64,000 nucleotides of DNA from Morganella psychrotolerans (GTDB taxonomy: Bacteria > Pseudomonadota > Gammaproteobacteria > Enterobacterales > Enterobacteriaceae). A program made the position numbers and the translations under genes. The notes beneath the pieces are model-generated. The model saw nothing but the letters and a program-made list of their open reading frames with translations, was not told the origin of the DNA and did not search any database. This document shows, piece after piece, positions 1,140 to 19,403 of this stretch (position 1 is the stretch's first letter; each line of letters begins with the position of its first letter). The stretch lies in the NCBI RefSeq assembly GCF_001676055.1, contig NZ_LZEX01000006.1:1-64000 (forward strand), read 5' to 3'.

Positions 1140-2629
1140 ATGAACTGGGAACAATTATTATCACCAAAAAGGTTACGTAATCCAACTACAAGCGCTAAAT
1201 TCGATTTAGATTGCAATAGAAATCAATATGAAAGTGATTTTGGTCGAGTAATCTTTAGTCCTGCATTACGCAGAATGCATGATAAAACACAAGTTTTTCC
1301 ATTAAATACAAATGATAATATTCATACAAGGCTGACTCATTCAATGGAAGTTATGTCTGTTGGATATTCACTAGGAATTGGGATCTGCAATCATGCTGAT
1401 TTCTTAAAAAGAATCAGCTCTCTAAAAGGGTCTTTTAATAAGAATATCTATAGAACCATTCCTGTAATATTAAAAAGCAGCTGTTTATTACACGATATTG
1501 GGAATCCCCCTTTTGGTCACTTTGGCGAAACTATAATACAAAATTACTTTCGAGAACTATTTGAAAAAAATAAAACAATATCTAGCGATATGACTTCGGA
1601 AGAAAGAAATGATTTTATAAATTTTGACGGTAATGCACAAGGCTTCCGAGTCATAACTAAGCTCCAAGCCTTAAATGATTTACATGGACTAAATTTAACC
1701 TCAGCAAGTTTAGCCTCATATTTAAAGTATCCAAATACAAATCCTCCAGATAAAAAAAGAATTGAGACAAAGAAAACAGGTGTTTTTTATTCAGAAAAAA
1801 AATACTTAGAGAAAGTATGTAAGGAATGCGGCCTGATAAATGAAGCAGACTTATTTTTGCGTCATCCATTAAGTTATTTAATGGAAGCAGCCGATTCAAT
1901 TTGCTATTCTGTAATTGATATTGAAGATGCTTTCAAAAAAGGAATAATAACTTTAAATGACATTCTAGAAGAGTTTAATAAAACCAAGTGTAAATTTGAA
2001 AAAGAAAACTTTGATTTATCAAACAACTCATTGGAATTAATAAACGAAGCTATTAACTATATAGATAATACAATTAAAAACACAGATGGTGAAAATAAAA
2101 AAAATTGTTGACATTAGAACTTATTTAATTGCTATTCTAGTTGACGACGCACTCAATAACTTCGCTAATAACTTAGATCAAATCGAAGCTGGTAATTATA
2201 ATAAAGAACTACTTGAGGATGGTAGATTAGCACCCTTAACAAAAGCACTACAAAATATAACTTGCTCTATAATCTTCCCATATAGAGAAATTGTTTCTTT
2301 GGAACTCGCTGGAGATTCTATATTAAAAGGAATATTCAATTATTATATTGGTTTGTTATTTTATGAACCTAAAGGGTTCGAAGAAGAAGATACCGAAATT
2401 GAAAAAATGAAAAGGAAGTATGCAAGCAAGGCCGAATCCATGATATCATCAAGCCTTGTACGTGTTGTAAAAAAAAGAACATGCAGAGGAATATGATTGC
2501 AACGAAAATATTCATATCGTTGAATTATCTACATATTTTAAGATAAAGTTAATTGTAGACTATGTTTCTGGAATGACTGATTTATTTGCAATTAATCATT
2601 ATCAAAAATTAAGTGGGCAGAAAATTTAA
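1140..2629 (+). pseudogene. dGTPase-family HD phosphohydrolase (Dgt-like dNTP triphosphohydrolase), read in three frames. It is interrupted twice, each time by a +1 shift inside an A8 run (~2096-2103 and ~2468-2475).
   Basis: The N-terminal part carries FSPALRRMHDKTQVFPL, HTRLTHSMEV, LLHDIGNPPFGHFGE, FDGNAQGFRV and LMEAADSICYSVIDIEDA, near-identical to E. coli Dgt motifs. The downstream frames continue the Dgt alignment through to YVSGMTDLFAINHYQKL (Dgt C-terminus). GC is about 28%. Confidence 0.8.
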
Positions 2630-2634
2630 ATATC

Positions 2635-3368
2635 ATGAAGAAAAACATTATAAAAGCTCATGAAAATGCATTCCATAAATATTTGGTGGATCGATTCCCT
2701 GACTTCACCAGCGAAATTATTGATGTATTATTAGAGGAAAAAAATGATGTTTTTCTTTTTAGTGGAATCATTAGAGATTACTTTTTACATAGAGATACGA
2801 AACTAGACTTCGATGTAAGAGATCTCGATATTGTAGTGCTTGATATTAACAAGTTCCAAAAAACCATTGGAAATAAAATAGAACATAAAAAAAAATTCAT
2901 TTGGTGGTTTGAAATTATATTTCAATGAAATTACTATCGATGTTTGGCAAACAAACTCAACATGGGGATTGAATCCTATAAAGGCGAATAAAATGGATTC
3001 TAATATAATCAACACTCTACCAGAAACGGTTTTTTTTTAATTGCTCATCTATTTTGTTTGACTTTCAAAATAAAACATTTATAGAGGATAATAATAATTA
3101 CTTCCAGTCTTTCATTGAAAGTAAAATATTAGATATCGTTCTAGAAGAAAACCCACTTCCAGAACTATGTATTTTGAATGCCATTTATTATACAAATACA
3201 TATGACTTAAAAATCAGTAAAAAACTAGCTAATTATGTAATGTCTACATTTTCAAAAATAAATAACGAACGATTTATAAAAGCTCAGCACAATCATTTTA
3301 ATAAAGTTATTTATGAAATAAATCAACTACAGAGAGAAATAGACAAATTGCTTACCAAAATAATTTAA
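2635..3368 (+). pseudogene. small Pol-beta superfamily nucleotidyltransferase of the CCA-adding/poly(A)-polymerase head-domain type, ~245 aa when three frames are joined. The frame shifts by +1 at an A9 run (2887-2895) and at a T9 run (3030-3038).
   Basis: The motif SGIIRDYFL...DFDVRDLDIVVLD resembles the GG.VRD...D.DIVT signature of PcnB/Cca head domains. Its start codon lies 5 nt after the dGTPase stop, so the two genes are probably translationally coupled. The call is tentative. Confidence 0.5.
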
Positions 3369-3523
3369 TTTATTATTAAAAGAACACATTAAACCGTACT
3401 ACATAAAATATATCTATATTTAAACACCGTTCTCATAGCTTTATTGATAGAATAAATAATAACATGTCTTTCACTAAAGTATCATTACAGTAAACCATAT
3501 TGCCTTTACCCCCCATAGCGGCT

Positions 3524-3568
3524 ATTCTAATGTTATCCCCCACAGGGGATATCATTGCAATATCCGCC
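3524..3568 (+). promoter_or_regulatory. two perfect HipB operator palindromes TATCC-N8-GGATA (3524-3541 and 3551-3568) just upstream of hipB
   Basis: They match the E. coli hipBA operator consensus exactly and overlap the predicted promoter. Confidence 0.8.
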
Positions 3569-3581
3569 ATAGGGGATAAAA

Positions 3582-3833
3582 ATGAAAGTCACATCACCGG
3601 CCGCACTGGCTAATGCAGTCAGAGATCAGCGAAAAATCAGTAAGATGAGTCAGACTCAGACTGCTGAGCTGATTGGTATCAAACAGACAACCGTTTCTGA
3701 TTTCGAGAACAAACCGGAATCCACTAAGCTGGAAACGTTGTTCAAAATCCTTGCTGCTCTGGACCTAGAGCTTCATGTTACGAAACGAGGCTCAACTCCG
3801 GATGAGAAAAAAACATGGAATAAGGAGTGGTAA
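3582..3833 (+). CDS. hipB: HipB antitoxin (Xre-family HTH)
   Basis: The 83-aa protein has the conserved ELIGIKQTTVSDFENKPE...LETLFKILAALDLEL stretch seen in E. coli HipB. It overlaps or abuts hipA. Confidence 0.9.
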   Translation: MKVTSPAALANAVRDQRKISKMSQTQTAELIGIKQTTVSDFENKPESTKLETLFKILAALDLELHVTKRGSTPDEKKTWNKEW

Positions 3834-3836
3834 GGG

Positions 3837-5147
3837 ATGAAAACACAGGCACTGACAGTCGCCATGAACGGCGATGTGGTAGGCACACTGTATCGGGATG
3901 GTACGGGTGCTATGTCATTCGAATACACGCCGGAATGGCTGTCTGAGCCCGGTTCCCGAGCTATTTCATTATCATTGCCCCTTCAGCACAACAGAATCAG
4001 GGGTAAGGAAGTATTTAATTTCTTCAGTAACCTGCTGCCGGATTCAGAGGTGATTATTGCCAGGATGCAGGCACGGTTCCATGTTGATACAACTCACCCG
4101 TTTGATCTGCTGGCAAGTGTCGGGCGTGACTGCGTGGGCGCAATTCAGTTGTATCCGTCGGGCAGTGACATTCCGTCTGTCATGGAAACACGGGCTGAGC
4201 CGCTGGATGATCATCAGATTGAAACACTGCTTGATGGCTATCAGACGGCACCTTTAGGGATGGAAGAAGGCGCTGATTTCCGGATTTCTTTAGCCGGAGC
4301 TCAGGAAAAAACAGCACTGCTCTGGTATCAGAACTGCTGGCAGCGACCACAAGGCAGTACACCTACCAGTCATATTTTTAAGCTCCCGATTGGGCGGATA
4401 GAACAGAATAATATCGACCTGCGGGAAAGCTGCGAAAATGAATGGCTGTGTTTGCGTATAGCCAAAGCATTTGGATTCCCGGCGGCTGATGCTGAATTAG
4501 CCGTATTTGGTCAGAAAAAGGTACTGATCGTCAGGCGCTTTGATCGGAAGTGGTCAGAGAATGGCTGGCTGATGCGGTTGCCTCAAGAGGATTTTTGCCA
4601 GGCTCTGGGAGTATCTCCGGCACTGAAATATGAGTCACATGGCGGTCCGGGAATAGCGGATGCAATGAATCTGTTGTTGGGCTCCCGCCTTGCCACACAA
4701 GACCGTGAATTATTTTTTAAATCACAGATTCTGTTCTGGATGCTGGCTGCAATTGATGGTCACGGGAAGAATTTCAGCCTGTTTATCGAGCCCGAAACAT
4801 CGTTCCGGATGACACCGCTTTATGATGTGATGTCTGCATTTCCTATTTTTGGCAGCAGGAGTATTCCGCTTAAAAAAGCCAAAATGGCAATGGCGTTATA
4901 CGGGAAAAATAAGCAGTATAATTTTGCGATGATACAGCCCCGGCATTTTATCAGTACCGCCGCACAAGTCGGATTTCCTCAGGATATTGCCCGTAAACTT
5001 ATGCTGGAAATGGCCTCTTACACAGGCACGGTGATCTCCACTGTAGCCACAGAGTTACCGGCTGATTTTCCGCAACACATCAGTGGCGCCATTTTCAAAG
5101 GGTTATCCGGGCAGGCTGCTAAAATCGTTAAATGGGTGCAAAATTAA
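3837..5147 (+). CDS. hipA: HipA serine/threonine-protein kinase toxin
   Basis: The 436-aa protein aligns along its full length with E. coli HipA (FNFFSNLLPDS, GAQEKTALL, RLPQEDFCQA, KYESHGGPGIA, DGHGKNFSLF). Confidence 0.95.
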   Translation: MKTQALTVAMNGDVVGTLYRDGTGAMSFEYTPEWLSEPGSRAISLSLPLQHNRIRGKEVFNFFSNLLPDSEVIIARMQARFHVDTTHPFDLLASVGRDCVGAIQLYPSGSDIPSVMETRAEPLDDHQIETLLDGYQTAPLGMEEGADFRISLAGAQEKTALLWYQNCWQRPQGSTPTSHIFKLPIGRIEQNNIDLRESCENEWLCLRIAKAFGFPAADAELAVFGQKKVLIVRRFDRKWSENGWLMRLPQEDFCQALGVSPALKYESHGGPGIADAMNLLLGSRLATQDRELFFKSQILFWMLAAIDGHGKNFSLFIEPETSFRMTPLYDVMSAFPIFGSRSIPLKKAKMAMALYGKNKQYNFAMIQPRHFISTAAQVGFPQDIARKLMLEMASYTGTVISTVATELPADFPQHISGAIFKGLSGQAAKIVKWVQN

Positions 5148-5254
5148 TCTCGGAGGGTATTGAAATGGGCTACATCGATGAAACGAATATAATTGATTGG
5201 GATAAGACCACCATTATTCAGAAACATTTCGTATATTTCTGAGGAGAAATAGCC

Positions 5255-5656
5255 ATGGTTAAAATAGCCCCTATCAAATTACTCCTTTCGTCTGCATTTT
5301 TATTTCTTTTGGCGGGCTATGGGATATATGTTTCAATAACTCATTATCTGGACTATTTTTTGATGAAGGATAAAATCGAATTTTCATTCTTAACCGGCCT
5401 GTTTGGTTTTGGTTCTCCCCTGATTATCTACTTTGTATATTTTGGATTTATTTTATCACGCGATATAAAACCAACAAAAAGAACAGTAAGCACTGCAAAA
5501 TATCTGGCAGGAATAGCAATATTCGGCATGATTTTTAGTTTGTTTTTTTTAGCCTACGTCAACGTTAACCTGACATCAAAAGGTTATCTGACTTGTGACA
5601 AAAAATCCATATTCGCTCCTAATAAATATGTCCTATCAAAAAATATGTGTAAATAA
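5255..5656 (+). CDS. hypothetical small membrane protein (3-4 predicted TM helices), low-GC island cargo
   Basis: The 133-aa ORF has hydrophobic segments and an RBS (GAGGAGAAATAGCC ATG). There is no recognisable family. Confidence 0.4.
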   Translation: MVKIAPIKLLLSSAFLFLLAGYGIYVSITHYLDYFLMKDKIEFSFLTGLFGFGSPLIIYFVYFGFILSRDIKPTKRTVSTAKYLAGIAIFGMIFSLFFLAYVNVNLTSKGYLTCDKKSIFAPNKYVLSKNMCK

Positions 5657-6146
5657 AGAGTACATGGTTTAATTATTAACCACTTGGCAGTAAAGCAATA
5701 TCACCTCCGGATAGTCCGGCTATTATATCCACTATGAATATAGTGCATAAAATATACTGATGAAGAATGAATATAATGAAAACAGGCAGATTGTTCATAT
5801 CGTTATTGATGCTATATCCGAAGATACTACCCTTTAAATAATTTCTCGGTATAGATACAGATTCCATCTGAATACGCTAATTCTGAATTCTTAATACAAA
5901 TCCCCATCCCAAAAAACTCAATCACCCGATCTACTCCGGAAACCTTCAAAACCCCAAATACAGTTGCTGATACAAATCATTAGCCACCTAATTCCGGGTA
6001 TTTCCTGGCTTTGCGGCAACGTTGCCTTTTTTAGCCATTTTCATGAAACGTAAACCCGCTTGAACCCGTCATCCGTTACCCCTACGTTTATACGCGTAAA
6101 ACCTGCTGTCAGTGACAGCCGCCAATGTTTCAATATCAATAAGATA

Positions 6147-6270
6147 TATACCCAACGTCATTCAAGTTGCAGGCAGGCGGCAAGCTCCGACCGCCGGGGA
6201 GCATACTGGTATGTGACCCGGCGGGTATCGTTCCGCCAACGAACCTGCTGTTTGAATGAATAAGGGTATA
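6147..6270. repeat. MITE-like repeat, copy 1 (~124 bp). It has imperfect terminal inverted repeats TATACCCAACGTCATTCAAG...CTGNTGTTTGAATGAATAAGGGTATA.
   Basis: It is about 85% identical to the copy at 47650-47775. A partial 5' end is also present at 41382-41408. Confidence 0.6.
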
Positions 6271-6772
6271 AGTGACCTGCAAGAAACGCCTTCGGGTGGC
6301 CGCAATACTCTTCCGTAATCCGGAAGAAACACCGTTAAAACCGAATCTCAGTGTCTGATATGTGCAGTTGACTGCGCTTTGCTATGCCTCAAGGGCATCT
6401 GCAAGCGCCTGTCCTGCTGCGCAGTGTTTAAGGCGTCACTTTTACGCCGCCGCACAGACTACTCTCAGCCCCTGAGATACACCGCTTACACAATCCGTCA
6501 TGCCTCTGACACCACAGTCAGCGTCTGATAAATCACCGGAAAGGAGACCACAACCACACTGAACCGATACCGGGAACGGGCTGCTCAGCCCGTGGGGATA
6601 TCCGCTCACGGACAGCCAAAGGCGAAAGCTGCACCCGTGCGGTACTGCGTGACGATATGAAAGCAATGGGATTTGATGTCTCCAAAAAGTTTTCCCGCTG
6701 GCTGGATAAGCTGGAAAAAGACAATCTGATCACATTGCGTGGCGAGGAAATTATCCCGCTGCCGTATCAGAC

Positions 6773-6990
6773 CAAAGTGGGGGACTAAACGGGGGAATGG
6801 TGGGGGAAGCCATCCGGAGCACCATAAAAACCGGTGTTTTCCCCACTTCGCAGTTATATATAGAACCTAAGTGGGGGCGATGCTGTAATTTCATAATAAA
6901 CATGCAGTTACGTTAAATTCCAAAAATGAGGTGGGGGAAGAAGTGGCACCCAGCTATGTGGGGGGCGAAGTGGGGGACGTTCTCACGTTT
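6773..6990. repeat. iteron-like array. It has at least 7 copies of RRGTGGGGG(A/C), one of them inverted, within ~220 bp, followed by an AT-rich tract (7080-7400).
   Basis: Copies are AAGTGGGGGA (6774), GGTGGGGGAAG (6799), inverted CCCCACTTCG (6843), AAGTGGGGGCG (6871), GGTGGGGGAAGAAGTGG (6929) and TGTGGGGGGCGAAGTGGGGGAC (6957-6978). The spacing and the neighbouring AT-rich DNA resemble a replication origin. Confidence 0.55.
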
Positions 6991-7558
6991 TTTCCCTGGC
7001 AGGCGCAGTTAAAACCTCGCTGATTTACAGACAACGCGTCAGTGCCGGTCATCTCAAATTTATAGTTGAGCCAGATATTTTTGATTGAAATTTTTCAGTG
7101 CCTGGGTATTTTATATTAGATTCGTAACGTAGCCGTACTAATCACCATGGATGAGATAATATTGATCGATACCATTTTTTTTTATTTATAAGCGCATTGA
7201 TTTTCTGGCAATTATTGTTTTTTCTCTGCTTGCACTTTGGCTTTCATCCATTTCATCAGGACGAATTTTAAGGCTTGCATTATTTTTGTTAGCGATACTA
7301 ATTATTACCCCTTATATTTTTGCCGCTGCTTATGTATTACTTATAATGTCCGTAAGCCTGATGTTTGCATATAACTAAAAATATACACACATCAATATTG
7401 CGCTTCTGATAGTTTATCTGCCGCTCTACCGCATCCCGTAACCACATAGCTACTTAGTCGTGCTGTATCCAATCTATCTACCCACACTAACAAATTTGCG
7501 CTCAGTCAGGTACCTGACAAAAACGATCACATCCGAAGGTTGTTTTTTATGCATGCAT

Positions 7559-7599
7559 TTGACGATTTATAAATCATGATTTACTATAAACGTAAATCA
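7559..7599 (+). promoter_or_regulatory. sigma70-like promoter (TTGACG-17-TACTAT) overlapped by a perfect 8-bp inverted repeat TGATTTAC-N7-GTAAATCA. This is a probable autoregulatory operator of the Xre-type antitoxin gene.
   Basis: Sequence inspection; it sits about 40 bp upstream of the ATG at 7637. Confidence 0.45.
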
Positions 7600-7636
7600 C
7601 CCCGCTTTGTCACATGCGGAAAAATGGGAGGATCGT

Positions 7637-8278
7637 ATGCATACGCACAGTGCTGAAAGAGAAAGAAAAAAACCGGCTGTTTCATTTCATGCAAATGAGG
7701 TGCTGGCAAGCCGCGTCAGTCATCTTGTTTCATCCCTTTTTGCTGATTTTGACGATAAATCTCTGGTATCTGAAATCATGGTACTGGAAGACCTTGAGTT
7801 GCTGGTTTACGTTGTAAATGCTTATCTGCAAAAGAAAACGCGGATGAATGATCGCGAAATGGAGATGTTCAAAGCCAGAATTCAGGCTACAGTCAGATTT
7901 TATCAGAAGCTGGATAAGCTGGGCGGTACTGTAAAAGCGAAAGAGGTCAGTGAGTTGCTGGGAGTGACACGGCAAACCGTTAATAATCATGTTAACAAAG
8001 GCAAGCTGATTGCAGTACGTCGTGGCGGTGATTATCTGTTCCCTGTCTTTCAGTTTAAGGGGTCAGAAATGCTCCCTCATCTGGACGATATTCTGCTGTG
8101 TCTGCCGCCGGAAACGGATGCAACGGCACGGGTTTCATTCCTGACCAACCCGGTTCGAGTTGATAATAAAAATCCTGTAAAAACACCGCTTGAGATCCTC
8201 AGTGACAATCCTTCCGATGAAAAAATAGCACTGTTACGCCGCGAGGCTACACTTTTCGCCAATCAGATGGCATCATAA
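7637..8278 (+). CDS. Xre/MbcA/ParS-like antitoxin with an HTH plus a C-terminal DUF2384 toxin-binding domain, and an unusually long N-terminal region
   Basis: The HTH is VSELLGVTRQTVNNHVNKGKLIAVRRGGDYLFP. The C-terminal FLTNPVRVDNKNPVKTPLEILSDNPSDEKIALLRREATLFA matches the DUF2384 consensus. The ORF-track start at 7607 uses TTG; the ATG at 7637 has a GGGAGGA RBS. Confidence 0.7.
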   Translation: MHTHSAERERKKPAVSFHANEVLASRVSHLVSSLFADFDDKSLVSEIMVLEDLELLVYVVNAYLQKKTRMNDREMEMFKARIQATVRFYQKLDKLGGTVKAKEVSELLGVTRQTVNNHVNKGKLIAVRRGGDYLFPVFQFKGSEMLPHLDDILLCLPPETDATARVSFLTNPVRVDNKNPVKTPLEILSDNPSDEKIALLRREATLFANQMAS

Positions 8279-8320
8279 AAGGGTTCACCGGCCCAGACAG
8301 ACCGGTGAACCATAACAGCA

Positions 8321-9243: not shown

Positions 9244-9261
9244 CCGGTACTGTGTTAAATA

Positions 9262-10521: not shown

Positions 10522-10971
10522 AAGTCCGGGTCACTCCTTTGTCGAATTGGTTTATCGCATCGTGACTTTTACGTACTCCGGGAACAACAAAGAAATATAT
10601 TCACAAAGTTGAACATTTTAATAAGCAGGTGACATAGGGGTTCATCACTGTGTGGACAACCAAAAACAGTGCAGAATAACGAAACAGGCTGAATTGCCGG
10701 TTGGTATAATTTGAGGGGAAAATTTAATTCGTTGTTTTTATTTGAAAAGATAAATAGTGATATTTTTTATCGGGGTATACAGGTGGCGGTATATATCTAG
10801 GTGAGATATACATGTGATTTATTGGTACTGACTTACCCCTCACTGCATTACTCTGCCATGAGGGTATAACGAGTGAACTACGATAAGAGTAATGAAAATA
10901 TGAAGTTTATTTAAAATATTTCTTTTATGAACATCACCGGAACCACCTGATACACAGGTGGCCAGCTAATA

Positions 10972-11707
10972 TTACCAATTTATATTAAAGATGTATCCTT
11001 CCAGCACAAGGGTAATAATTACAATAAATAATACAACCATTCCGCCAACTCCGAATGTCTTAAATCTACATTTCTGCCCACACTTAAATATAAAAAAGAA
11101 GAAACCAGTTTGGTTTTTATTCGCTAATGCATAGGCTAACTCAATAAAAGAAGATATGTGTATTAAAATAATGGAAATACTTATCAATATTGCAGATGAT
11201 ATTATAGAAAGAGAAAGATTCTTCCCATGTCCATTTAATTTCGCCCAGAATTTACTGGCAGAATCAACCTCCCTGGCAACATTAAGAATATCCTGAGGAA
11301 TTAGCCCATTGACTTTTCCATTTAATGAAAAAATTATCACTGCCAATACACCCATTAATAACCATCTTATAACATCAACACGTTCGGCTTCCTTGTTAGT
11401 AAATAAAATTAATAATCCAATAAATGCTAATACGGGTGACGTTACAGCTCCCCATGTTAATACAGAATATACTTGTTCATAATAACTAAAAAAAAAGCCA
11501 TGCTAAGAGACTGACTATGAATATTACTGCAACGGCACTGCCTACAACGATAGGATTGCCATCACTATCTGTTGATTTTTTGTGATTATTATTGATGGTT
11601 TTGTTAATTACTTGGGTGTTTTGAATATTGTAGCCACCACTGTTACTCTGAACAACGTTAATATTATCTGTGTTATTCTTGATGTTTATATCTGCAAATC
11701 TTCCCAT
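10972..11707 (-). pseudogene. Asn-rich membrane protein of unknown function, given as two ORFs of 73 and 127 aa. The frames fuse into ~245 aa if the A9 run at 11488-11496 were A8.
   Basis: Manual translation shows an open frame linking the two ORFs across the homopolymer. It has an Asn-rich N-terminus and at least 4 hydrophobic helices. Confidence 0.4.
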
Positions 11708-12373: not shown

Positions 12374-12396
12374 AAAAAAAGCCACCTCGCGGTAGC
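12374..12396 (-). terminator. rho-independent terminator downstream of tRNA-Leu (stem GCTACC-GCGA-GGTGGC plus T7), supplied by the island
   Basis: Hairpin plus U-run 18 nt past the tRNA 3' end. Confidence 0.45.
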
Positions 12397-12413
12397 TTGA
12401 TTTCACTTAAGAA

Positions 12414-12495
12414 TGCCGAAGGCCGGAATCGAACCGGCACGCCCTAAAGCGGTTGATTTTGAATCAACTGCGTCTACCAATTCCGCCACTCCGGC
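12414..12495 (-). tRNA. leuX: tRNA-Leu (anticodon CAA), the leuX homologue. Its 3' end is reconstituted from island sequence and no CCA is encoded (the 3' trailer is TTC).
   Basis: It is 82 nt and matches E. coli leuX (GCCGGAGTGGCGGAATTGGTAGACGCAGTTGATTCAAAATCAACC...GTGCCGGTTCGATTCCGGCCTTCGGCA). The anticodon loop is TTCAAAA. Confidence 0.9.
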
Positions 12496-12523
12496 ACTGA
12501 AGTGTGTTCTCGATAACGGCGTT

Positions 12524-12553
12524 ATTATACGTGTGGTGCCGGGAGGTGCAAGA
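12524..12553 (-). promoter_or_regulatory. leuX promoter: -35 TTGCAC, 16-nt spacer, -10 TATAAT, and a GC-rich discriminator
   Basis: Near-consensus sigma70 elements 25-60 nt upstream of the tRNA 5' end. Confidence 0.5.
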
Positions 12554-12758
12554 ATTATCATCTCACCGGTCTGTTGAGTGATTAAAAATCCATCATTTCA
12601 GTAGGATGATACTTTATTTTACATCTGCCAAATTTCTGCCCGTTTTTAGCTCTGTGAGTTATTGTCGTTTTATTTATGGAGATTCGTCCCCGGATGAATA
12701 GACATCAATACAATTGCTTATATAATCACCCCCGGCTCCTGATAAATGTGAGGTAGGT

Positions 12759-12839
12759 ATGGGCTTTGCCGGCTGGATTGCAATGGGTATCTTTATTGGT
12801 ATCGCTATTGGTATTTTGTTACGTGTCTTCAAAAAATAA
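12759..12839 (+). CDS. candidate 26-aa hydrophobic small protein (MGFAGWIAMGIFIGIAIGILLRVFKK)
   Basis: It has a good RBS (GAGGTAGGT ATG), a single TM helix and a KK C-terminus. It is too short for the ORF track. Confidence 0.3.
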   Translation: MGFAGWIAMGIFIGIAIGILLRVFKK

Positions 12840-12904
12840 CTGACTTACATTGATTCTCATATTCTTATGTTTTTATGCTTGCACGGAAGGCTTGTTAAAT
12901 CATC

Positions 12905-14128
12905 ATGAGTAAATTACACCGTCATATTGTGCGTCTGCTGCCTTTTTCATTACTGGCCATTGCGCTCTCCGCCTGTTCCTCACAGCCTGCGAAGCAAGCC
13001 GTTTCGCCCGCAGAACGCCCGCCTCTGGACTGGTCCATTATTGATAACAGTACAACACCCCTGAAGCTGGCACCGCAACTTGTAGATGAAGCCGGAGAGA
13101 AAATTTTCTCAGAAACAGATGCCCGCGGTATGTTTATGGTGGTGATTGATAACAACGAAATTTTTCACCGCAGCTATGGTGAGACCCGTCCGGGAAATGG
13201 TGTCAAACCACGGACAGATTCGCTGATCCGTATTGCATCCGTCAGTAAACTGATGACCAGCGAAGTGCTGGTAAAAATGGCGGATGACGGGCTGGTGAAT
13301 CTGAACGATCCGCTGCAAAAATACACTTACGGGCAGACAAAAGTGCCGGCTTATAACGGCAAGCCAATCCGCCTGTTTCATCTGGCGAGTCACACCAGTA
13401 TTCTGCCGCGCGAGCAGCCCGGCGGGAAATGGGGACGTCCGGTGTTTACCTGGCCAAGCCGCGATCAGCGCTGGACATGGCTGAAAACAACAAAACTGAC
13501 TGCCCAGCCGGGAACAGAAGCTGCTTATTCCAATATTGCGTATGACTTACTGGCAGATGCACTCGAAAAAGCCGGAAAACGCCCTTATCCTGAGCTGTTC
13601 AGACAATATGTGACACAGCCTGCGGGTATGAAAGATACGACTTACAATCCGTCTTCCGCTCAGTGTAAGCGCCTGATGGTCGGTTTCAAACCAAGTGATT
13701 GTTACAGCACACTGGCAGCAGTCGGCAGTGGCGGGGTTTACTCTACACCGGCTGATATGCAGAAATGGATGCAGGGATTTCTCTCATCCGGACGTTCAGC
13801 ACGCAAAGCAACGGCTTCCAAAGAACAGACTATCTATTTCAAACGCGGCCATCTTAATGAAATAAAAGGGATGGATGTTGCAGGTAGTGCAGATGGTCTG
13901 GGGCTTGGTTGGGTGTATCTGGCACCTGTCGGGGATATCCCGGCTATTTACCAGAAAACCGGTGGCGGTGGTGGCTTTAATACCTATATGGCTATGATCC
14001 CGGAGAAAAATGTCGGTATCTTTGTGGTAATGACCCGTAAAGACGGCAGTAAATTCAGCCCGTTACCGAATGGTGTCAATGATTTGGTACGCTCTCTGGC
14101 GGATTTACATACCCGTGATTTTCTGTAA
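12905..14128 (+). CDS. ampH: AmpH-like penicillin-binding protein / class C beta-lactamase-fold serine hydrolase lipoprotein
   Basis: The 407-aa protein has a lipobox (LSAC), the SVSKLMTSE (SxxK) motif, and full-length similarity to E. coli AmpH. Confidence 0.85.
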   Translation: MSKLHRHIVRLLPFSLLAIALSACSSQPAKQAVSPAERPPLDWSIIDNSTTPLKLAPQLVDEAGEKIFSETDARGMFMVVIDNNEIFHRSYGETRPGNGVKPRTDSLIRIASVSKLMTSEVLVKMADDGLVNLNDPLQKYTYGQTKVPAYNGKPIRLFHLASHTSILPREQPGGKWGRPVFTWPSRDQRWTWLKTTKLTAQPGTEAAYSNIAYDLLADALEKAGKRPYPELFRQYVTQPAGMKDTTYNPSSAQCKRLMVGFKPSDCYSTLAAVGSGGVYSTPADMQKWMQGFLSSGRSARKATASKEQTIYFKRGHLNEIKGMDVAGSADGLGLGWVYLAPVGDIPAIYQKTGGGGGFNTYMAMIPEKNVGIFVVMTRKDGSKFSPLPNGVNDLVRSLADLHTRDFL

Positions 14129-14150
14129 TACCTGAGTAAAAATGCCCGCT

Positions 14151-14954
14151 TCAGCAGCGGGCATGTTCCAGTACCGTTTTCATTAAAAAAGCATCAAGCG
14201 GCACGCTGTCACGATGCGATGATTTACCCGGAGAGTGTTCCGCGGTTTCTGCCAGCACATCCTGTATCAGTTTATCGATAGCCGGACGCCGTGCACCATA
14301 CAAACTTTCACCGGCTGATTTCTTCAGAGTCACAAGCGCGTTAATTTCATCACGGACTGTATCGTCAGTTACTGTGCCATCCACCAGCGTTTCAAATGCC
14401 ATCGGCGGCAGCCCTTTGCCGGCGGCTATCCAGCGTAGTGCCATTACCGGTCGCAATACATAAAAATACTTTTTCAGCCGGACCTGCTCTGCCAGTAAAT
14501 GCTCTTGCGTGTTGCGTTTTGCCATCGAAAGATAGTGCCAGCGCGCTTTATGTGAGGAATAAAACTGTGCTGCCAGCTCCGTTATTTCCCTGGTGAATGT
14601 TTCATCCTGATAATATATTACCGGAGAGCTGAGCCACTCAATCAGTGCGGGGTTAGAGTTTCTCAGCAGTTTCAGTGCTTTGGATAACTCCCAGCCCGCC
14701 ACATCCAGTTCATCATCTATCGGTTTTTCTATGACATCCCGCTTGCGATCAAGTGCGAGATACCAATCCGGCTGATGCACATAGATAAAACGCACATCAT
14801 AATCACTGTCCGGTGAGGCAAATCCCCATCCGCGACTACCTGATTCACAGGCGTACAACACTTTCACATGATGTGTTTTCTCTATCTCTGCCAATGTTTT
14901 TTTTATCCGCTCCCGCATTACGGCGCAAACGGCTTCATCATCTTTATCCGTCAT
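14151..14954 (-). CDS. Pol-beta superfamily nucleotidyltransferase (GS-X9-DxD motif ESGSRGWGFASPDSDYDVRF), last gene of the rtcB operon
   Basis: The 267-aa protein has a 4-nt gap to rtcB. This NTase family is often encoded next to RNA-repair genes. Confidence 0.75.
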   Translation of the reverse strand: MTDKDDEAVCAVMRERIKKTLAEIEKTHHVKVLYACESGSRGWGFASPDSDYDVRFIYVHQPDWYLALDRKRDVIEKPIDDELDVAGWELSKALKLLRNSNPALIEWLSSPVIYYQDETFTREITELAAQFYSSHKARWHYLSMAKRNTQEHLLAEQVRLKKYFYVLRPVMALRWIAAGKGLPPMAFETLVDGTVTDDTVRDEINALVTLKKSAGESLYGARRPAIDKLIQDVLAETAEHSPGKSSHRDSVPLDAFLMKTVLEHARC

Positions 14955-14958
14955 TTTT

Positions 14959-16185
14959 CTATCCTTTCACACACACTACCTGACGCAGTGTATGAACAAT
15001 TTCAACCAGGGATGACTGTGCGGCCATCACAGCATCAATATCTTTGTAAGCCATCGGGATCTCATCGATCACATCACTGTCTTTACGGCATTCCACATGG
15101 GCGGTGGCCTGTTTCTGGTCTGCGACTGAGAAGCGTTTTTTTGCCTCGGTACGGCTCATTACACGACCCGCTCCGTGGCTGCATGAGCAGAAACTCTCTT
15201 CATTTCCCAACCCGCGCACAATATAGCTTTTGGCACCCATAGAGCCCGGGATAATTCCCATCTGCCCTTTACGGGCGGATACCGCCCCTTTACGTGTAAC
15301 CAGGATTTCCTCACCGAAATGCTGTTCTTTCTGCACATAGTTATGATGGCAATTCACCGCTTCCTGCTGTGTGGTAAAAGGCCTGGTGATTTCACGGGAC
15401 AAGGCTTCCAGCACCCGGTGCATCATCACTTCCCGGTTATGGCGGGCAAAATCCTGTGCCCAGCCGACTGCTTCCATATAATCATTAAAATACACACTTC
15501 CCTCTTCAAAATACGCAAGATCACGATCCGGCAGATTGGCAATATGTGTCTGCATATCTTTCTGTGCCAGCGAGATAAACAAGTTTCCGATAGCATTACC
15601 GACCCCGCGCGAACCGCTGTGTAACATCACCCACACGAAACTGCTTTCATCCAGGCACAGTTCAATAAAATGATTCCCTGTGCCGAGTGTTCCCAGATGC
15701 TTATAGTTATTGGTATTACGTAACGCAGGATATTTATCGCAGATACGTTTAAACCCGGCATCCAGATGCATCCAGTGGCTGTCCACAATGTCCGGTGTAT
15801 CACGCCAGCTTCCTTTATCCCGTCCGTGACGCTGAGTGGTTCGTCCGTGAGGAACCGCCGCTTCAATGGCAAAACGGATATTTTGCAGATTGTCCGGCAG
15901 ATCGGTTGCCGTCAGTGATGTTTTCACTGCAATCATTCCGCAACCGATATCCACCCCGACAGCTGCCGGGATAATCGCACCTTTGGTCGGGATCACGCTG
16001 CCGATAGTTGATCCTTTCCCGACATGCACATCCGGCATCACGGCAAGATGCTTAAAAATAAACGGCATTTTTGCGGTGTTCTGCAACTGAATAACCGCTT
16101 TCGGATCCACCGGAACACCATTGGTCCACAATTTTACCGGCGCACTGTTTTCCTGAATTAATTCATTGAAACCATTACTGAACAT
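14959..16185 (-). CDS. rtcB: RtcB RNA 3'-phosphate/2',3'-cyclic phosphate ligase
   Basis: The 408-aa protein is about 80% identical by eye to E. coli RtcB along its whole length. Confidence 0.95.
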   Translation of the reverse strand: MFSNGFNELIQENSAPVKLWTNGVPVDPKAVIQLQNTAKMPFIFKHLAVMPDVHVGKGSTIGSVIPTKGAIIPAAVGVDIGCGMIAVKTSLTATDLPDNLQNIRFAIEAAVPHGRTTQRHGRDKGSWRDTPDIVDSHWMHLDAGFKRICDKYPALRNTNNYKHLGTLGTGNHFIELCLDESSFVWVMLHSGSRGVGNAIGNLFISLAQKDMQTHIANLPDRDLAYFEEGSVYFNDYMEAVGWAQDFARHNREVMMHRVLEALSREITRPFTTQQEAVNCHHNYVQKEQHFGEEILVTRKGAVSARKGQMGIIPGSMGAKSYIVRGLGNEESFCSCSHGAGRVMSRTEAKKRFSVADQKQATAHVECRKDSDVIDEIPMAYKDIDAVMAAQSSLVEIVHTLRQVVCVKG

Positions 16186-17312
16186 TATTGAACATCCTTA
16201 ATTTTTACCAATCCGTTCATTACCTGATCCAGTCCGCCGTAAACAGAAATCTGATCGATACGATGTGCGATACTTTCCAGCATTTCCAGCTCTTTCAGCC
16301 GTAATGCCACCGGGTTATTTTCCATCACTTTCGCCGTATTGAGCAGCGAGCGTGTCGCAGCAGTCTCTTCACGACGACGGATAACATTGGCCTGAGCTGA
16401 TTTTTCAGCTTCAACGACCTGCGATAAAATAGTGCGCATTTCGCCCGGTAAAATAATATCTTTCACCCCGGCAGACGCAACTTCCAGCCCGAACGGAATG
16501 GTTGAATCTGCTATCTGTGCAAGCACCAGCTCATCAATTAACCGCTTGTTTTCCAACAATTCATCCAGAGTCCGGGTACCGACAACTTCGCGCAGCGCAA
16601 ACTGTAATTCACGATAGAGATGCTCTGCCGGCTTACTCAGCTGTGAAAATGCCTGTAAAATATCGGTATAGCGCCAGTTAGCGGATAAGTTAATCCGCAA
16701 TGTCACTTTATCGCGGGTCAGAATTTCCTGACCACCGACGTCCAGTGATTGCAAACGGGTGTCGATCACATCTGCTTCCGGCTTATGGTCCGTACACCAG
16801 TAACCGTAAGTGCCGGGTGCCAGCAATGAATCCACTTCGCCGTCAATTTTCAGTACGCCCGTATGCCATGCCGGGATCTGAACGATCAGCACAAGTTCTG
16901 ATCCCTTTACTTTCTGTTTTCCGCGGGTCAGGCGGGATAATAATGTGTCATCCACTCTAATATTTCCGGTTACCTGAGTCTCCGCCCGCAAGCTGTTACC
17001 CTTCTTCCAGTACAGACGACGACCGCCGGATGGTAAAATTTCTGTCAATGTATCATGCAGATACAAAAAGCCTGTTTCATCATCTGCCGGACAGAGATCA
17101 ACACAATATTCAGTTACCCATTGCGGATGATACTCGCGCAAGTGCTCCGCCAGTTTTGTATCGATCGGCGCGGCCCCCGGTTCAAAAGTTGTCACTGTCA
17201 GTTTATTGAACCAGTCATTAAGACGGTGCTCTCCTGCCGGTAAAATAGCCTGAAAATTCCCGTTTTTTTCAACTAATGCGATTGTTCCCTGGGCAATTGT
17301 TATTTTTTTCAT
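16185..17312 (-). CDS. SPFH/band-7 (slipin/stomatin-like) domain protein with a ~170-aa N-terminal domain and no obvious TM helix. It is the first gene of the RtcR-controlled operon.
   Basis: The C-terminal half has the SPFH signature (KDIILPGEMRTILSQVVEAEKSAQANVIRRREETAATRSLLNTAKV...LRLKELEMLE). The stop overlaps the rtcB start (ATGA). Confidence 0.8.
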   Translation of the reverse strand: MKKITIAQGTIALVEKNGNFQAILPAGEHRLNDWFNKLTVTTFEPGAAPIDTKLAEHLREYHPQWVTEYCVDLCPADDETGFLYLHDTLTEILPSGGRRLYWKKGNSLRAETQVTGNIRVDDTLLSRLTRGKQKVKGSELVLIVQIPAWHTGVLKIDGEVDSLLAPGTYGYWCTDHKPEADVIDTRLQSLDVGGQEILTRDKVTLRINLSANWRYTDILQAFSQLSKPAEHLYRELQFALREVVGTRTLDELLENKRLIDELVLAQIADSTIPFGLEVASAGVKDIILPGEMRTILSQVVEAEKSAQANVIRRREETAATRSLLNTAKVMENNPVALRLKELEMLESIAHRIDQISVYGGLDQVMNGLVKIKDVQ

Positions 17313-17490
17313 TATTTTTCCTTTTCATTTTATGAGCCACGACCGGACACAAATACAGTATCGCGGGGGAAACCACAGAGGACCGGAGGCTGTCTGTCGT
17401 TCTGCCCGCCACCCGGTATGACAGCCGGGCCGTGGTGTGCGGCTCTGCGTTCAGCCGCGTGAAAACTGCTTTATGTTTACTGCATAAGGA

Positions 17491-17528
17491 GGTGATTCAG
17501 GATTCGAACCTGATAAAGCCATATCACC
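17491..17528 (-). ncRNA. tRNA-like minihelix in the rtc operon leader: GGTGAT-ATGGCTTTA-[TCAGG TTCGAAT CCTGA]-ATCACC (acceptor-like stem plus a perfect T-arm). Possible Y-RNA-like or tRNA-like element.
   Basis: A GGTTCGAATCC T-loop consensus flanked by 5-bp and 6-bp stems, inside a 330-nt untranslated leader between the sigma54 promoter and the first ORF. Confidence 0.3.
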
Positions 17529-17639
17529 GGGAACTGCGCGGACAAAACGGAATACAGATAATGAAACGGCATTGCCGCCACCTCTGCACCGGTCGGGCGT
17601 AAAGCCCAGACAATTTCTGTCAGTGCGGTACAGGTAATA

Positions 17640-17657
17640 TTGCGATAAGCGTGCCAG
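17640..17657 (-). promoter_or_regulatory. sigma54 (-24/-12) promoter TGGCACG-CTTA-TCGCA, driving the SPFH-rtcB-NTase operon
   Basis: One mismatch to TGGCACG-N4-TTGCW. It is divergent from the rtcR start about 170 bp away. Confidence 0.6.
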
Positions 17658-17824
17658 TTTTATAAATTTCAAAAATATTTTTATAACATATTGATATTTA
17701 ACATATATTTATTTTTGTGATTTTATCCGTGCCATTGGGATATAAAATGACTTATGCTTATTACTATCCTGTAATATCGTGTTTTATCCTGAAAAATAAA
17801 TTCCGGTGATTGTGAAAATCAATA

Positions 17825-19403
17825 ATGAAAAAGAAAGTTGTGATAGGGGTTCTGGGTACGGTCTTAGACCGGCGGGGAAAAAGAGCTAACCGCTGGAATA
17901 AGTGGCGGCCGAGTGTCGGATTGTGCCAGCAGCCGGATCTGAATATTGATCGCTTTGAACTTATTTATCAGGCCGATAATTTACAGACAGCGGAACGGGT
18001 AAAAGAGGATATCGGGCAGGTATCATCACAAACAGAAGTGATGCTGCATAAGGTCAATATTGCCGACCCGTGGGACTTTGAACAGGTTTATACCGCGCTC
18101 CGGGATTTCGCCGCACACTATCCGTTCGATACAGAAAATGAAGAGTATCTGGTGCATATCACCACCGGGACGCATGTGGTTCAGATTTGCTGGTTCCTGC
18201 TGACTGAAGCCAGTTATCTGCCCGCCCGGCTTATTCAGACCGCCCCCCGCCATGAATCGGGAGATACCGGCCCCGGGGGTGTGTATACCATTATTGACCT
18301 CGACCTCCGTCGCTATACACAGATAACAGGGCGCTTTCAGAAAGAGCAACAAGCTCAGGTCGCTTTCCTGAAGTCCGGTATCGCCACCCGTAATGCCGCG
18401 TTCAACAAGACAATCGATAAAATTGAACGCGTTGCCCTGCGCTCTGCCGCACCGGTTCTGCTGACCGGACCGACAGGTGCCGGGAAATCATTTCTCGCAA
18501 AACGGATATATGAGCTGCGCCGTAACCGTCATCAGGTAAAAGGTCGCTTTGTGGAAGTCAATTGTGCCACACTGCGCGGCGACAACGCGATGTCCGCACT
18601 GTTCGGTCATGTAAAAGGGGCATTTACCGGGGCTATTCAGGCGCGCGGTGGATTACTGAAAGAGGCTGACGGCGGGATACTGTTTCTCGATGAAATAGCT
18701 GAACTGGGAGCCGATGAGCAGGCCATGCTGCTCAAAGCCATTGAAGAAAAACGTTTTTTTCCCTTACGGATCTGACTATGAGACAGAAAGTGATTTTGCC
18801 CTGATAGCAGGAACTCACCGTAATCTGGCACAAAGGGTCAGTGAAGGGCATTTCCGGGAAGATTTATACGCCCGTATCAATATGTGGACATTTACCCTGC
18901 CCGGATTGGCACATCGGCGGGAAGATATCGAGCCGAATGTCGATTATGAGCTGGCAAAATACAGCCGTGATCAGCAAACAAGCGTCCGCTTTGATAGCGA
19001 TGCCCGGCAAATTTATCTGGCTTTTTCCTGTTCACCGCAGGCTCTGTGGCGCGGTAATTTTCGTGAACTGGGAGCATCTGTCACCCGCATGGCGACCTTT
19101 GCAGAAAGCGGACGAATTACAACGGCGCTGGTGCAGGAAGAGATTGAGAGACTGGAAAGTCAGTGGGAAGGTCTTCAGGAAAACAGCAATCTGCCCGCCG
19201 GGATAGGCGACATTGATCTGTTCGACCGCCGGCAGCTGGAAACCGTGATTGCGGTCTGCCGCCGCTCCCGGACATTGTCAGATGCCGGACGCGCTCTGTT
19301 TGCTGTCTCCCGTCAGCAGAAGAAGCAACCTAATGATGCTGACCGGCTGCGTAAATACCTCGCCCGGTTTAATCTCGACTGGGAACAGATAACAAATAAC
19401 TGA
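17825..19403 (+). pseudogene. rtcR: RtcR sigma54-dependent transcriptional activator (CARF + AAA+ + HTH), split into 316-aa and 229-aa ORFs by a +1 shift in a T7 run (18754-18760)
   Basis: Both halves align with E. coli RtcR (GAFTGA-like VKGAFTGA, ...EEKRFFP | YGSD...DADRLRKYLARF). The true sequence appears to be T6. Confidence 0.85.

What the first reader, a model, noticed from the sequence alone, without database searches (positions are those of the whole stretch)
1140..19403. All six disrupted genes are broken by a single extra base inside a homopolymer of 7 nt or longer
There are six interruptions. Two are in the dGTPase (A8, A8). Two are in the small NTase (A9, T9). One is in the Asn-rich membrane protein (A9 at 11488-11496). 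One is in rtcR (T7 at 18754-18760, where the conserved protein needs T6). Every downstream frame is +1 relative to the upstream frame. Six of six events of the same sign at long mononucleotide runs are unlikely to be independent biology. The likely explanations are homopolymer over-calling by the sequencing platform, or less likely a slipped-strand (phase-variation) hotspot. This affects whether the accessory genes should be treated as pseudogenes.
Basis: seen in the sequence. Interest (0 to 1): 0.55.

Follow-up and report, generated by a model that had tools for sequence, protein, structure and literature searches.

The report
Sequencing-error frameshifts at long A/T runs
The six frame breaks are real in the deposited sequence, but they are almost certainly one-base over-calls of long A/T runs in an Ion Torrent draft genome of Morganella psychrotolerans, so the four affected genes should be treated as intact, not as pseudogenes.

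Summary
Observation confirmed. Six +1 frame breaks lie exactly in A8, A8, A9, T9, A9 and T7 runs. They affect four genes, not six.

Removing one base at each site restores:
- a full-length dGTP triphosphohydrolase;
- its conserved 243-aa partner;
- a 244-aa membrane protein;
- a 525-aa RtcR.

At all six sites the relatives carry the same run one base shorter. One independent contig matches the window at 1438 of 1439 bases and differs only by that base.

The window is a 2016 Morganella psychrotolerans draft. Its proteins are GenBank OBU099xx, and its sister draft from the same batch is LZEY01. The genome announcement says these drafts were made from Ion PGM 400-bp reads assembled with SPAdes.

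Across about 55 kb of comparable sequence I found ten run-length differences, four of them non-coding. In all ten the window is longer. The frequency rises with run length.

The sister draft has its own private 1-nt indels, including one inside nrdD. dN/dS is about 0.1 before and after the breaks, and the window lineage shows no excess of non-synonymous changes.

Verdict: sequencing artefact (about 0.9). Real recent slippage mutations or phase variation remain minor possibilities. Low interest, apart from the annotation fix.

The parts
1140..2629 (+). dGTP triphosphohydrolase gene, read in three frames in the window. It is 495 aa once one A is removed from each of the two A8 runs.
   Evidence: translations. 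(100% coverage of 488-504 aa homologues, conserved across both junctions). (TIGR01353, 325.6 bits against a cutoff of 152). (PADLOC dGTPase, 5.6e-66).
2097..2104 (+). A8 run. Orthologues have A7. First frame break in the dGTPase.
   Evidence: L085 and L086: identical flanks, A7. (M. morganii L084: A7).
2469..2476 (+). A8 run. Orthologues have A7. Second frame break in the dGTPase.
   Evidence: L085 and L086: A7. (M. morganii: A6, in frame).
2635..3368 (+). It is 243 aa after correction and matches no Pfam family above threshold.
   Evidence: 243-248 aa homologues at 65-90% identity; some sources call it 'Poly A polymerase head domain-containing'. (always directly downstream of the dGTPase). 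(no Pfam hit above cutoff).
2887..2895 (+). A9 run. Orthologues have A8. First frame break in the partner gene.
   Evidence: L085 and L086: A8. (M. morganii: A8).
3030..3038 (+). T9 run. Orthologues have T8. Second frame break in the partner gene.
   Evidence: L085 and L086: T8. (M. morganii: T6, in frame).
10972..11707 (-). Asn-rich membrane protein gene, 244 aa after correction.
   Evidence: corrected translation. (P0302, 244 aa, identical to it). (homologues of about 240-245 aa matched in one stretch over residues 1-244).
11488..11496 (+). A9 run (T9 on the coding strand). An independent contig has 8.
   Evidence: L089 (Logan SRR28822593) matches window 10769-12207 at 1438 of 1439 positions. 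The single difference is this base.
17825..19403 (+). rtcR (RNA repair transcriptional activator), 525 aa after correction.
   Evidence: P0164: 99% identity, 525 aa, M. psychrotolerans. (all 11 cluster members are 525-528 aa). (P0164 matches NF038308, 828 bits).
18754..18760 (+). T7 run. Conspecific and M. morganii genomes have T6. Frame break in rtcR.
   Evidence: L003: CGTTTTTTCCC. (L087: the only indel in 14,776 aligned bases). (the Logan contig of SRR3184980 also reads T7).
1083..1090 (+). Intergenic A8 upstream of the dGTPase. The orthologous locus has A7.
   Evidence: comparison with L085.
10763..10768 (+). Intergenic T6 upstream of the island integrase. The conspecific has T5, in a region of only 94% identity, so this is the weakest case.
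28269..28278 (+). Intergenic A10 upstream of the first OTCase-family gene (probably argI). Two other strains have A9.
   Evidence: L087/L091 and L090 both have A9.
29605..29614 (+). Intergenic T10 upstream of the OTCase-family gene that precedes pyrI (probably pyrB). Two other strains have T9.
   Evidence: L091 and L090 both have T9.

Best explanation
The extra bases are consensus errors of the deposited assembly, not features of the organism.

The window comes from one of the three 2016 Morganella psychrotolerans drafts made from Ion Torrent PGM 400-bp reads assembled with SPAdes. Ion Torrent infers the length of a mononucleotide run from the size of one pH signal. In this data set, long A/T runs were called one base too long in enough reads that the consensus kept the extra base.

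Where such a run lies inside a gene, the result is an apparent +1 frameshift. Where it lies between genes, it goes unnoticed.

Shown here: the provenance, the one-base excess at every site, the uniform direction, the dependence on run length, and the lack of any sign of gene decay. Inferred: that the reads themselves are heterogeneous or biased at these sites. I could not see the raw reads.

The biological consequence is that the dGTPase, its partner, the membrane protein and RtcR are most likely intact and functional in this strain.
For: 1. Provenance.
- The window's ORF fragments are GenBank OBU09922, OBU09923, OBU09924, OBU09930 and OBU09931 (M. psychrotolerans, AYY17_ locus tags, 108,739-bp contig).
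- The parallel series OBU02xxx lies on LZEY01000061.1.
- Logan contigs of SRR3184918 are exact substrings of LZEY, and four Logan contigs of SRR3184980 are exact substrings of the window. The two strains therefore belong to one run batch.
- PMC5026451 states that LZEW, LZEX and LZEY were sequenced on Ion PGM with 400-bp reads and assembled with SPAdes.

2. Near-identical independent sequence. L089 matches the window at 1438 of 1439 bases. The only difference is the run at 11488, and the L089 ORF equals my corrected protein.

3. Conspecific comparison. GCA_965118675.1 is 98.3-98.9% identical to the window over 12,175-64,000. The only 1-nt indels are 18754, 28269 and 29605, and the window is longer at each.

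4. All comparisons pooled. There are 10 run-length differences and the window is longer in all 10 (sign test p = 0.002). Frequency by reference run length: 9 nt, 2 of 2; 8 nt, 3 of 8; 7 nt, 3 of 25; 6 nt, 1 of 44; 5 nt, 1 of 154. No G/C run is affected. Four of the ten are non-coding.

5. Sister draft. The LZEY draft has six private 1-nt indels in 20 kb. One lies inside nrdD and one inside an MFS gene; nrdD is not called there and the MFS product is shorter. Its two changes at A/T runs of 5 nt or more in the other strains (A7 to A8, T5 to T6) are also +1.

6. Contig breaks. Six of eight ends of the SRR3184980 Logan contigs lie within 31 nt of a run of 5 nt or more. The background is 25% (p = 0.005).

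7. No decay.
- dN/dS is 0.09-0.14 in every segment before, between and after the breaks of the dGTPase and its partner, and 0.03 and 0.15 for rtcR.
- Window-lineage changes are 51 synonymous and 14 non-synonymous, against 41 and 15 in the intact orthologue (Fisher p = 0.53).
- There are no stop codons or other frame-breaking indels.
Against: 1. The k-mer assembly of the strain's own run (Logan SRR3184980) also reads T7 in rtcR. The extra base is therefore abundant in the reads and is not an assembler quirk. This is equally what a real mutation would give.

2. Bragg et al. 2013 (PMC3623719) found that PGM reads from the 100-200 bp kits over-call short runs and under-call long ones. The errors proposed here are over-calls of long runs. 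A different kit, base-caller or error-correction behaviour has to be assumed.

3. Runs of 7-8 nt are changed in 6 of 9 cases in the AT-rich island but in 0 of 24 cases in the core (Fisher p = 8e-5). This needs a context or coverage effect that I could not test. Selection against real frameshifts in core genes would also produce part of it.

4. None of the comparison sequences is proven to be the same strain.
Confidence: 0.9

Rival explanations
1. The extra bases are real, recent slipped-strand insertions in this isolate, for example in a mismatch-repair-deficient or long-passaged culture. The four genes would then be very young pseudogenes.
For: - The strain's own reads, as assembled by Logan, give T7 in rtcR.
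- All affected genes are dispensable: island cargo and rtcR.
- No essential core gene is hit, although 24 core runs of 7-8 nt exist.
- Long A/T runs are known mutational hot spots. One example is a 9-bp A.T run that collected 7 indels in mismatch-repair-defective E. coli lines (PMC8510543).
Against: - All 10 differences are insertions, including four non-coding sites. From general knowledge, natural slippage yields both signs. I did not retrieve a ratio.
- Four hits fall in two adjacent genes with no excess of non-synonymous change on this lineage and no other lesion.
- There are zero substitutions alongside the one indel in 1.4 kb against L089.
- The sister draft from the same platform shows the same kind of private indels, even inside nrdD.
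- The platform is known for exactly this class of error.
Confidence: 0.06
2. The runs are phase-variable contingency tracts that switch the genes on and off by reversible slippage. The sequenced culture happened to be in the OFF state at all of them.
For: - The tracts are 7-9 nt long.
- Three of the four genes are accessory. Two are likely defence-related and one is a membrane protein.
Against: - Every relative examined has the in-frame length at every site. No strain shows an alternative OFF length.
- Two tracts per gene would make switching back ON improbable.
- rtcR's tract is only T6 in the intact state.
- The same +1 appears at non-coding runs with no ORF to switch.
Confidence: 0.03
3. 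The frameshifts are real but are decoded through transcriptional or ribosomal slippage on the A/T runs, as in some AT-rich endosymbionts. Full-length proteins would still be made.
For: A8-A9 tracts are long enough for RNA polymerase slippage (general knowledge, not tested here).
Against: - No relative uses the shifted arrangement.
- Two shifts per gene would need two independent slippage events per transcript.
- Nothing distinguishes these tracts from the non-coding ones that show the same +1.
Confidence: 0.01

Closest known systems
Flow-chemistry (Ion Torrent PGM / 454) homopolymer indel errors that create false frameshifts in draft genomes
   Same: - Single-base length errors confined to mononucleotide runs.
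- The probability rises with run length.
- A/T flows are the most error-prone (PMC3623719).
- Frameshifted ORFs appear in assemblies.
- The source genome was made on this platform.
   Different: Bragg et al. report that long runs are mostly under-called in 100-200 bp kits. Here all ten differences are over-calls, in a data set made with the 400-bp kit and SPAdes.
PacBio RS II under-called homopolymers in the first finished Clostridium autoethanogenum genome (PMC4687164)
   Same: A one-directional, platform-specific run-length bias produced about 240 false indels and many 'frameshifted' genes. It was revealed by comparison with Illumina and Sanger data. This is the same logic and the same kind of evidence as here.
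   Different: The direction is opposite (deletions), the platform differs, and that case was confirmed by Sanger sequencing. That confirmation is missing here.
Phase-variable contingency loci (slipped-strand mispairing at homopolymeric tracts, e.g. Haemophilus, Neisseria, Campylobacter)
   Same: Frame breaks lie at homopolymeric tracts in accessory or surface genes.
   Different: - There is no tract-length polymorphism among relatives.
- Two of the genes carry two tracts each.
- The same change occurs at non-coding runs.
- One tract is only 6 nt in its intact state.
Genuine pseudogenes from homopolymer frameshifts in host-restricted pathogens (e.g. Yersinia pestis; from general knowledge)
   Same: Single-base frameshifts in mononucleotide runs that inactivate dispensable genes.
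   Different: Such genomes also show IS insertions, deletions, nonsense mutations and relaxed dN/dS. Here the four genes carry no other lesion and show dN/dS of about 0.1.

Membership tests
Sequencing/assembly homopolymer artefact | The genome was produced on a platform that infers run length from signal amplitude. | tested here: met
   The OBU099xx/AYY17 proteins equal the window ORFs. The sister OBU02xxx series lies on LZEY01. SRR3184918 matches LZEY and SRR3184980 matches the window. PMC5026451 states Ion PGM 400-bp reads plus SPAdes for LZEW, LZEX and LZEY. The link of this window to LZEW or LZEX is inferred from the accession series, not read from the record.
Sequencing/assembly homopolymer artefact | Independent sequence of the same or a near-identical genome differs only in run length. 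| tested here: met
   L089 matches at 1438 of 1439 bases, and the only difference is the run at 11488. For the other five sites only 88-99% identical relatives were available. The same strain was not available.
Sequencing/assembly homopolymer artefact | The differences are one-directional, depend on run length, and ignore coding status. | tested here: met
   All 10 differences are longer in the window, and 4 are non-coding. Rates are 2/2, 3/8, 3/25, 1/44 and 1/154 for reference lengths 9, 8, 7, 6 and 5. Caveat: 6 of 9 in the island against 0 of 24 in the core for lengths 7-8.
Sequencing/assembly homopolymer artefact | Other assemblies from the same study and platform show comparable private indels. 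| tested here: met
   LZEY (L090) has six private 1-nt indels in 20 kb. One lies inside nrdD and one inside an MFS gene; nrdD is not called there and the MFS product is shorter.
Sequencing/assembly homopolymer artefact | Raw reads show mixed or strand-biased run lengths at the sites. | not testable with these tools
   Only indirect evidence: 6 of 8 Logan contig ends of SRR3184980 lie within one k-mer of a run of 5 nt or more (p = 0.005). The k = 31 setting for Logan is from my own knowledge.
Phase-variable contingency locus | Tract length varies among strains or within a population, in both directions. | tested here: not met
   All relatives carry the in-frame length at all six sites. All 11 RtcR cluster members are full length.
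Phase-variable contingency locus | A single switch tract per gene, located where it controls expression of that gene. | tested here: not met
   The dGTPase and its partner carry two shifted tracts each. The same +1 occurs at intergenic runs.
Genuine pseudogene | Relaxed selective constraint or additional lesions (stops, other indels, truncation). | tested here: not met
   dN/dS is 0.09-0.14 in all segments of the dGTPase and its partner. The window lineage has 51 synonymous and 14 non-synonymous changes, against 41 and 15 in the intact orthologue. There are no other frame-breaking indels.
Genuine pseudogene | The lesion is reproduced by accurate resequencing of the same isolate. | not testable with these tools
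   Only the original run (Logan SRR3184980) was found for this strain. It reproduces T7 in rtcR but is not independent of the assembly.

The most novel reading that the evidence does not exclude
The extra bases are real. This M. psychrotolerans isolate would then have an insertion-biased instability of long A/T runs, for example a mismatch-repair or polymerase defect. That defect would have just knocked out a dGTPase-type defence pair, a membrane protein and RtcR, possibly with partial rescue by transcriptional slippage on the A8-A9 tracts.
Probability: 0.05. Interest if true: 0.4.

Novelty: not a real feature. Interest (0 to 1): 0.1.

Why it matters
The main value is for annotation. In this draft, four genes are split into 'hypothetical protein' fragments or left without a protein record: OBU09922-09924 and OBU09930-09931 exist as fragments, and no full-length dGTPase or RtcR product is on record. 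They should be merged and counted as present. They comprise a dGTPase-type candidate anti-phage gene with its conserved partner, a membrane protein, and the RtcR activator of the RNA-repair operon.

The result also flags the three LZE* M. psychrotolerans drafts as carrying platform-specific indels. In this 64-kb window there is about one per 6 kb, counting the ten run-length differences. This will inflate pseudogene counts, distort pan-genome and defence-system inventories, and spread fragment proteins into UniRef/nr clusters.

If the breaks were real, they would show an unusual insertion-only mutational burst, but the evidence is against that.

Tried and rejected
- Megablast of 1000-20000 against E. 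coli genomes found only the tRNA-Leu gene, so the window is not E. coli.
- Exact-protein look-ups failed for HipA, the 323-aa dGTPase fragment, NusA and the ORF at 38884-40119, probably because of start-codon choice.
- The ORF-merging scan flagged 62430 (T7) and 42901 (A6) as possible further frameshifts. Both sit at ORF pairs that overlap anyway: dihydropteroate synthase/phosphoglucosamine mutase, and two ABC-transporter permeases. I rejected both. The flags at 17303 and 14185 are small extensions at gene ends, and the conspecific has the same run lengths there.
- None of the 11 RtcR cluster members is identical to the corrected window protein, so no same-strain resequencing of rtcR was found.
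- No near-identical intact copy of the dGTPase or its partner exists in the protein collection. The best matches are 76% and 90%.
- Pfam, NCBIfam and PADLOC gave nothing above threshold for the partner protein or the membrane protein.
- I looked for a published insertion:deletion ratio at A/T runs in E. coli mutation-accumulation lines and did not find it in the passages read. The statement that natural slippage goes both ways rests on general knowledge.
- A literature search for SRR3184980 found nothing.

Full report
**What is in the sequence**

The window has 47.8% G+C. It holds 49 long mononucleotide runs (A/T of 7 or more, G/C of 6 or more).

ORF coordinates and three-frame translations show that the reading frame moves by +1 at each run. 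The pieces are:
- 1140-2111, then 2086-2496, then on to 2629;
- 2635-2928, then 2909-3040, then 3054-3368;
- 11707-11486, then 11355-10972, on the minus strand;
- 17825-18775, then 18714-19403.

Removing one base from each run gives clean ORFs of 495, 243, 244 and 525 aa. There are therefore six interruptions in four genes.

**The corrected proteins are real, conserved proteins**

- *dGTPase.* The 495-aa product covers 100% of 488-504 aa dGTP triphosphohydrolases from M. morganii, Providencia and Proteus. It is conserved straight across both junctions (...ENKKIVDIRTYL......VRVVKKE...). It passes the TIGR01353 cutoff and matches the PADLOC dGTPase model.
- *Partner.* The 243-aa product has 243-248 aa homologues that always sit directly downstream of that dGTPase.
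- *Membrane protein.* The 244-aa protein matches homologues of about 240-245 aa in a single stretch over residues 1-244.
- *RtcR.* The 525-aa product is 99% identical to M. psychrotolerans RtcR. All 11 members of that 90% cluster are 525-528 aa.

**Direct DNA comparison at the six sites**

- Two independent Logan contigs (L085 from ERR11042323 and L086 from SRR25224555) are 88-90% identical to the window. They carry the same flanks with A7, A7, A8 and T8 where the window has A8, A8, A9 and T9. The only other indels are an in-frame 3-nt difference and the gene end.
- M. morganii has in-frame lengths as well.
- For rtcR, M. morganii L003 and the conspecific L087 read CG-T6-CCC against T7 in the window.
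- For the membrane protein, L089 (SRR28822593) matches window 10769-12207 at 1438 of 1439 positions. The single difference is the run, 8 against 9. Its ORF (P0302) is identical to my corrected protein.

**Where the window comes from**

- RtcR relatives place it in Morganella, and the 99% hit names M. psychrotolerans.
- Exact look-ups show that the window's ORF fragments are GenBank proteins OBU09922, OBU09923, OBU09924 (AYY17_17015), OBU09930 and OBU09931. Its intact genes run from OBU09932 to OBU09970. All lie on a 108,739-bp contig.
- Two parallel M. psychrotolerans series exist, OBU02xxx and OBU05xxx. OBU02xxx lies on LZEY01000061.1.
- A Logan contig of SRR3184918 is an exact substring of the LZEY contig. 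Four Logan contigs of SRR3184980 are exact substrings of the window.
- The genome announcement for LZEW, LZEX and LZEY calls them the first three M. psychrotolerans drafts. It says they were sequenced on an Ion PGM with 400-bp reads and assembled with SPAdes (PMC5026451).

I therefore take the window to be LZEW or LZEX. That last step is inferred from the accession series and the run batch, not read from the record.

**A wider survey of run lengths**

I fetched the conspecific assembly GCA_965118675.1 (L087, L091, L099). It is identical to long Logan contigs of ERR14205329. It covers window 12,175-64,000 at 98.3-98.9% identity.

In about 51 kb the only single-base indels are:
- 18754 (T7 against T6, rtcR);
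- 28269 (A10 against A9, intergenic);
- 29605 (T10 against T9, intergenic).

At the last two, the LZEY strain agrees with the shorter length.

Pooling all references gives ten run-length differences, and the window is longer in all ten (sign test p = 0.002). Four are non-coding.

| Reference run length (A/T) | Window longer | Runs compared |
|---|---|---|
| 9 | 2 | 2 |
| 8 | 3 | 8 |
| 7 | 3 | 25 |
| 6 | 1 | 44 |
| 5 | 1 | 154 |

No G/C run is affected, and none of the 24 runs compared differs. An ORF-merging scan found no other homopolymer frameshift in the window. Its two hits in the core sit at ORF pairs that overlap anyway: dihydropteroate synthase/phosphoglucosamine mutase, and two ABC-transporter permeases.

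**Evidence that the platform, not the organism, is responsible**

- The sister draft LZEY has six private 1-nt indels in 20 kb relative to both the window and the conspecific assembly. One lies inside nrdD and one inside an MFS transporter gene. In the LZEY locus nrdD is not called and the MFS product is shorter. Its two changes at A/T runs of 5 nt or more in the other strains are also +1.
- Logan contigs of SRR3184980 and SRR3184918 are 1.4-3.4 kb, against 12-38 kb for ERR14205329.
- Six of eight SRR3184980 contig ends lie within 31 nt of a run of 5 nt or more. The background is 25% (p = 0.005). This is what length-heterogeneous reads do to a k-mer graph. That Logan uses k = 31 is from my own knowledge.

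**No trace of gene decay**

- Against the intact orthologue L085, dN/dS is 0.09-0.14 in every segment before, between and after the breaks of the dGTPase and its partner.
- For rtcR against the conspecific it is 0.03 upstream and 0.15 downstream, based on 1 and 4 non-synonymous changes.
- With M. morganii as outgroup, the window lineage has 51 synonymous and 14 non-synonymous unique codon changes. The intact orthologue has 41 and 15 (p = 0.53).

If four or five neutral slippage events had accumulated in 2.2 kb, a matching load of unconstrained substitutions would be expected. None is seen.

**Points that do not fit neatly**

1. The k-mer assembly of the strain's own reads also gives T7 in rtcR. 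The extra base is therefore common in the reads. This is compatible with a systematic flow-call bias, but also with a real mutation.
2. Bragg et al. found that PGM reads from the 100-200 bp kits under-call long runs (PMC3623719). The present pattern is over-calling. A one-directional platform bias has a precedent in PacBio under-calling in C. autoethanogenum (PMC4687164). The direction here still has to be attributed to kit, base-caller or error-correction behaviour that I could not examine.
3. Runs of 7-8 nt are changed in 6 of 9 cases in the 29-31% G+C island but in 0 of 24 cases in the core (p = 8e-5). A low-coverage or AT-rich context effect is plausible but untested.

**Comparison with known things**

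The best match is the well-known class of flow-chemistry homopolymer artefacts.

Phase variation fails its defining tests. There is no length polymorphism among relatives, there are two tracts per gene, and the same change occurs at non-coding runs.

Genuine pseudogenisation fails the test for relaxed constraint and extra lesions. Truly decayed genes do lie nearby: a truncated integrase at 366-674 and P4-like remnants at 6600-7047. They are decayed by truncation or deletion, not by run-length changes.

**Verdict**

I put about 0.9 on a sequencing artefact, about 0.06 on real recent slippage mutations, and about 0.03 on phase variation. Novelty: not a real feature. Interest is low beyond the annotation fix and the warning about these three drafts.

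Noticed in passing
window 1-12500: The first 12.4 kb is a mosaic genomic island next to tRNA-Leu(CAA) (12413-12496, minus strand). It holds an intact P4-type integrase (9262-10521), an IS transposase HTH ORF (61-330), a truncated second integrase (366-674, Arm-DNA-binding domain only), hipBA (3582-5147), a DUF1240 gene, an HTH_17 protein next to a RES-domain protein (7607-8968), and remnants of P4-like genes (6600-7047). G+C falls to 29-31% in the segments that carry five of the six frame breaks.
   Followed up: partly
window 1140-3368; L083/L084 10001-12267; L085 668-5064: The dGTPase and the 243-aa partner form a conserved two-gene unit in Morganella, Providencia and Proteus, and both proteins have homologues in Bacteroidota. 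In L085 a 545-aa cytidine/dCMP-deaminase-domain protein lies divergently upstream. The dGTPase matches the PADLOC dGTPase model, but the partner matches no Pfam, NCBIfam or PADLOC family above threshold. This may be an undescribed accessory component of a nucleotide-depletion defence module.
   Followed up: partly
window 28269-28278 and 29605-29614: The A10 and T10 runs lie upstream of two OTCase-family genes, probably argI and pyrB. Two other strains have A9 and T9. If the T run is part of a pyrBI-type leader, its annotated length matters for any attenuation model. It is probably T9.
   Followed up: partly
L090 (LZEY01000061.1), positions equivalent to window 32195, 32420, 34408, 39020, 46898, 47817: The sister Ion Torrent draft has six private single-base indels in 20 kb. 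One lies inside nrdD, which is not called as a gene there. One lies inside an MFS transporter gene, whose product is 374 aa against 399 aa. Four are deletions: three at short G/C runs (G5 to G4, C3 to C2, G2 to G1) and one at a T run (T6 to T5). Two are insertions at A/T runs.
   Followed up: partly
window 61057-61071: There is a 15-nt insertion (ATAAATAAGATAAGG) relative to the conspecific, in the intergenic region between the secG and glmM genes. It looks like an imperfect tandem duplication of the following ATAAATAATGTAAG, and is probably natural variation.
   Followed up: no
window 47846-48369 (DEAD-box helicase gene, 47834-49813, minus strand): There are in-frame indels of 3, 9, 3 and 9 nt relative to the LZEY strain in the C-terminal repetitive part of the helicase. 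These are natural length variation, unlike the 1-nt run changes.
   Followed up: no
window 26950-27070 and 41014-41681: Two short intergenic segments do not align with the conspecific genome, although the flanks are 98-99% identical. The second contains the A9 run at 41319-41327, whose true length could therefore not be checked. The T9 run at 7175-7183 could not be checked either.
   Followed up: no
window 14151-19403: The RNA-repair locus is rtcR, divergent from a Band_7/SPFH gene (16185-17312), rtcB (14959-16185) and an RlaP-family nucleotidyltransferase gene (14151-14954). No rtcA is present.
   Followed up: no
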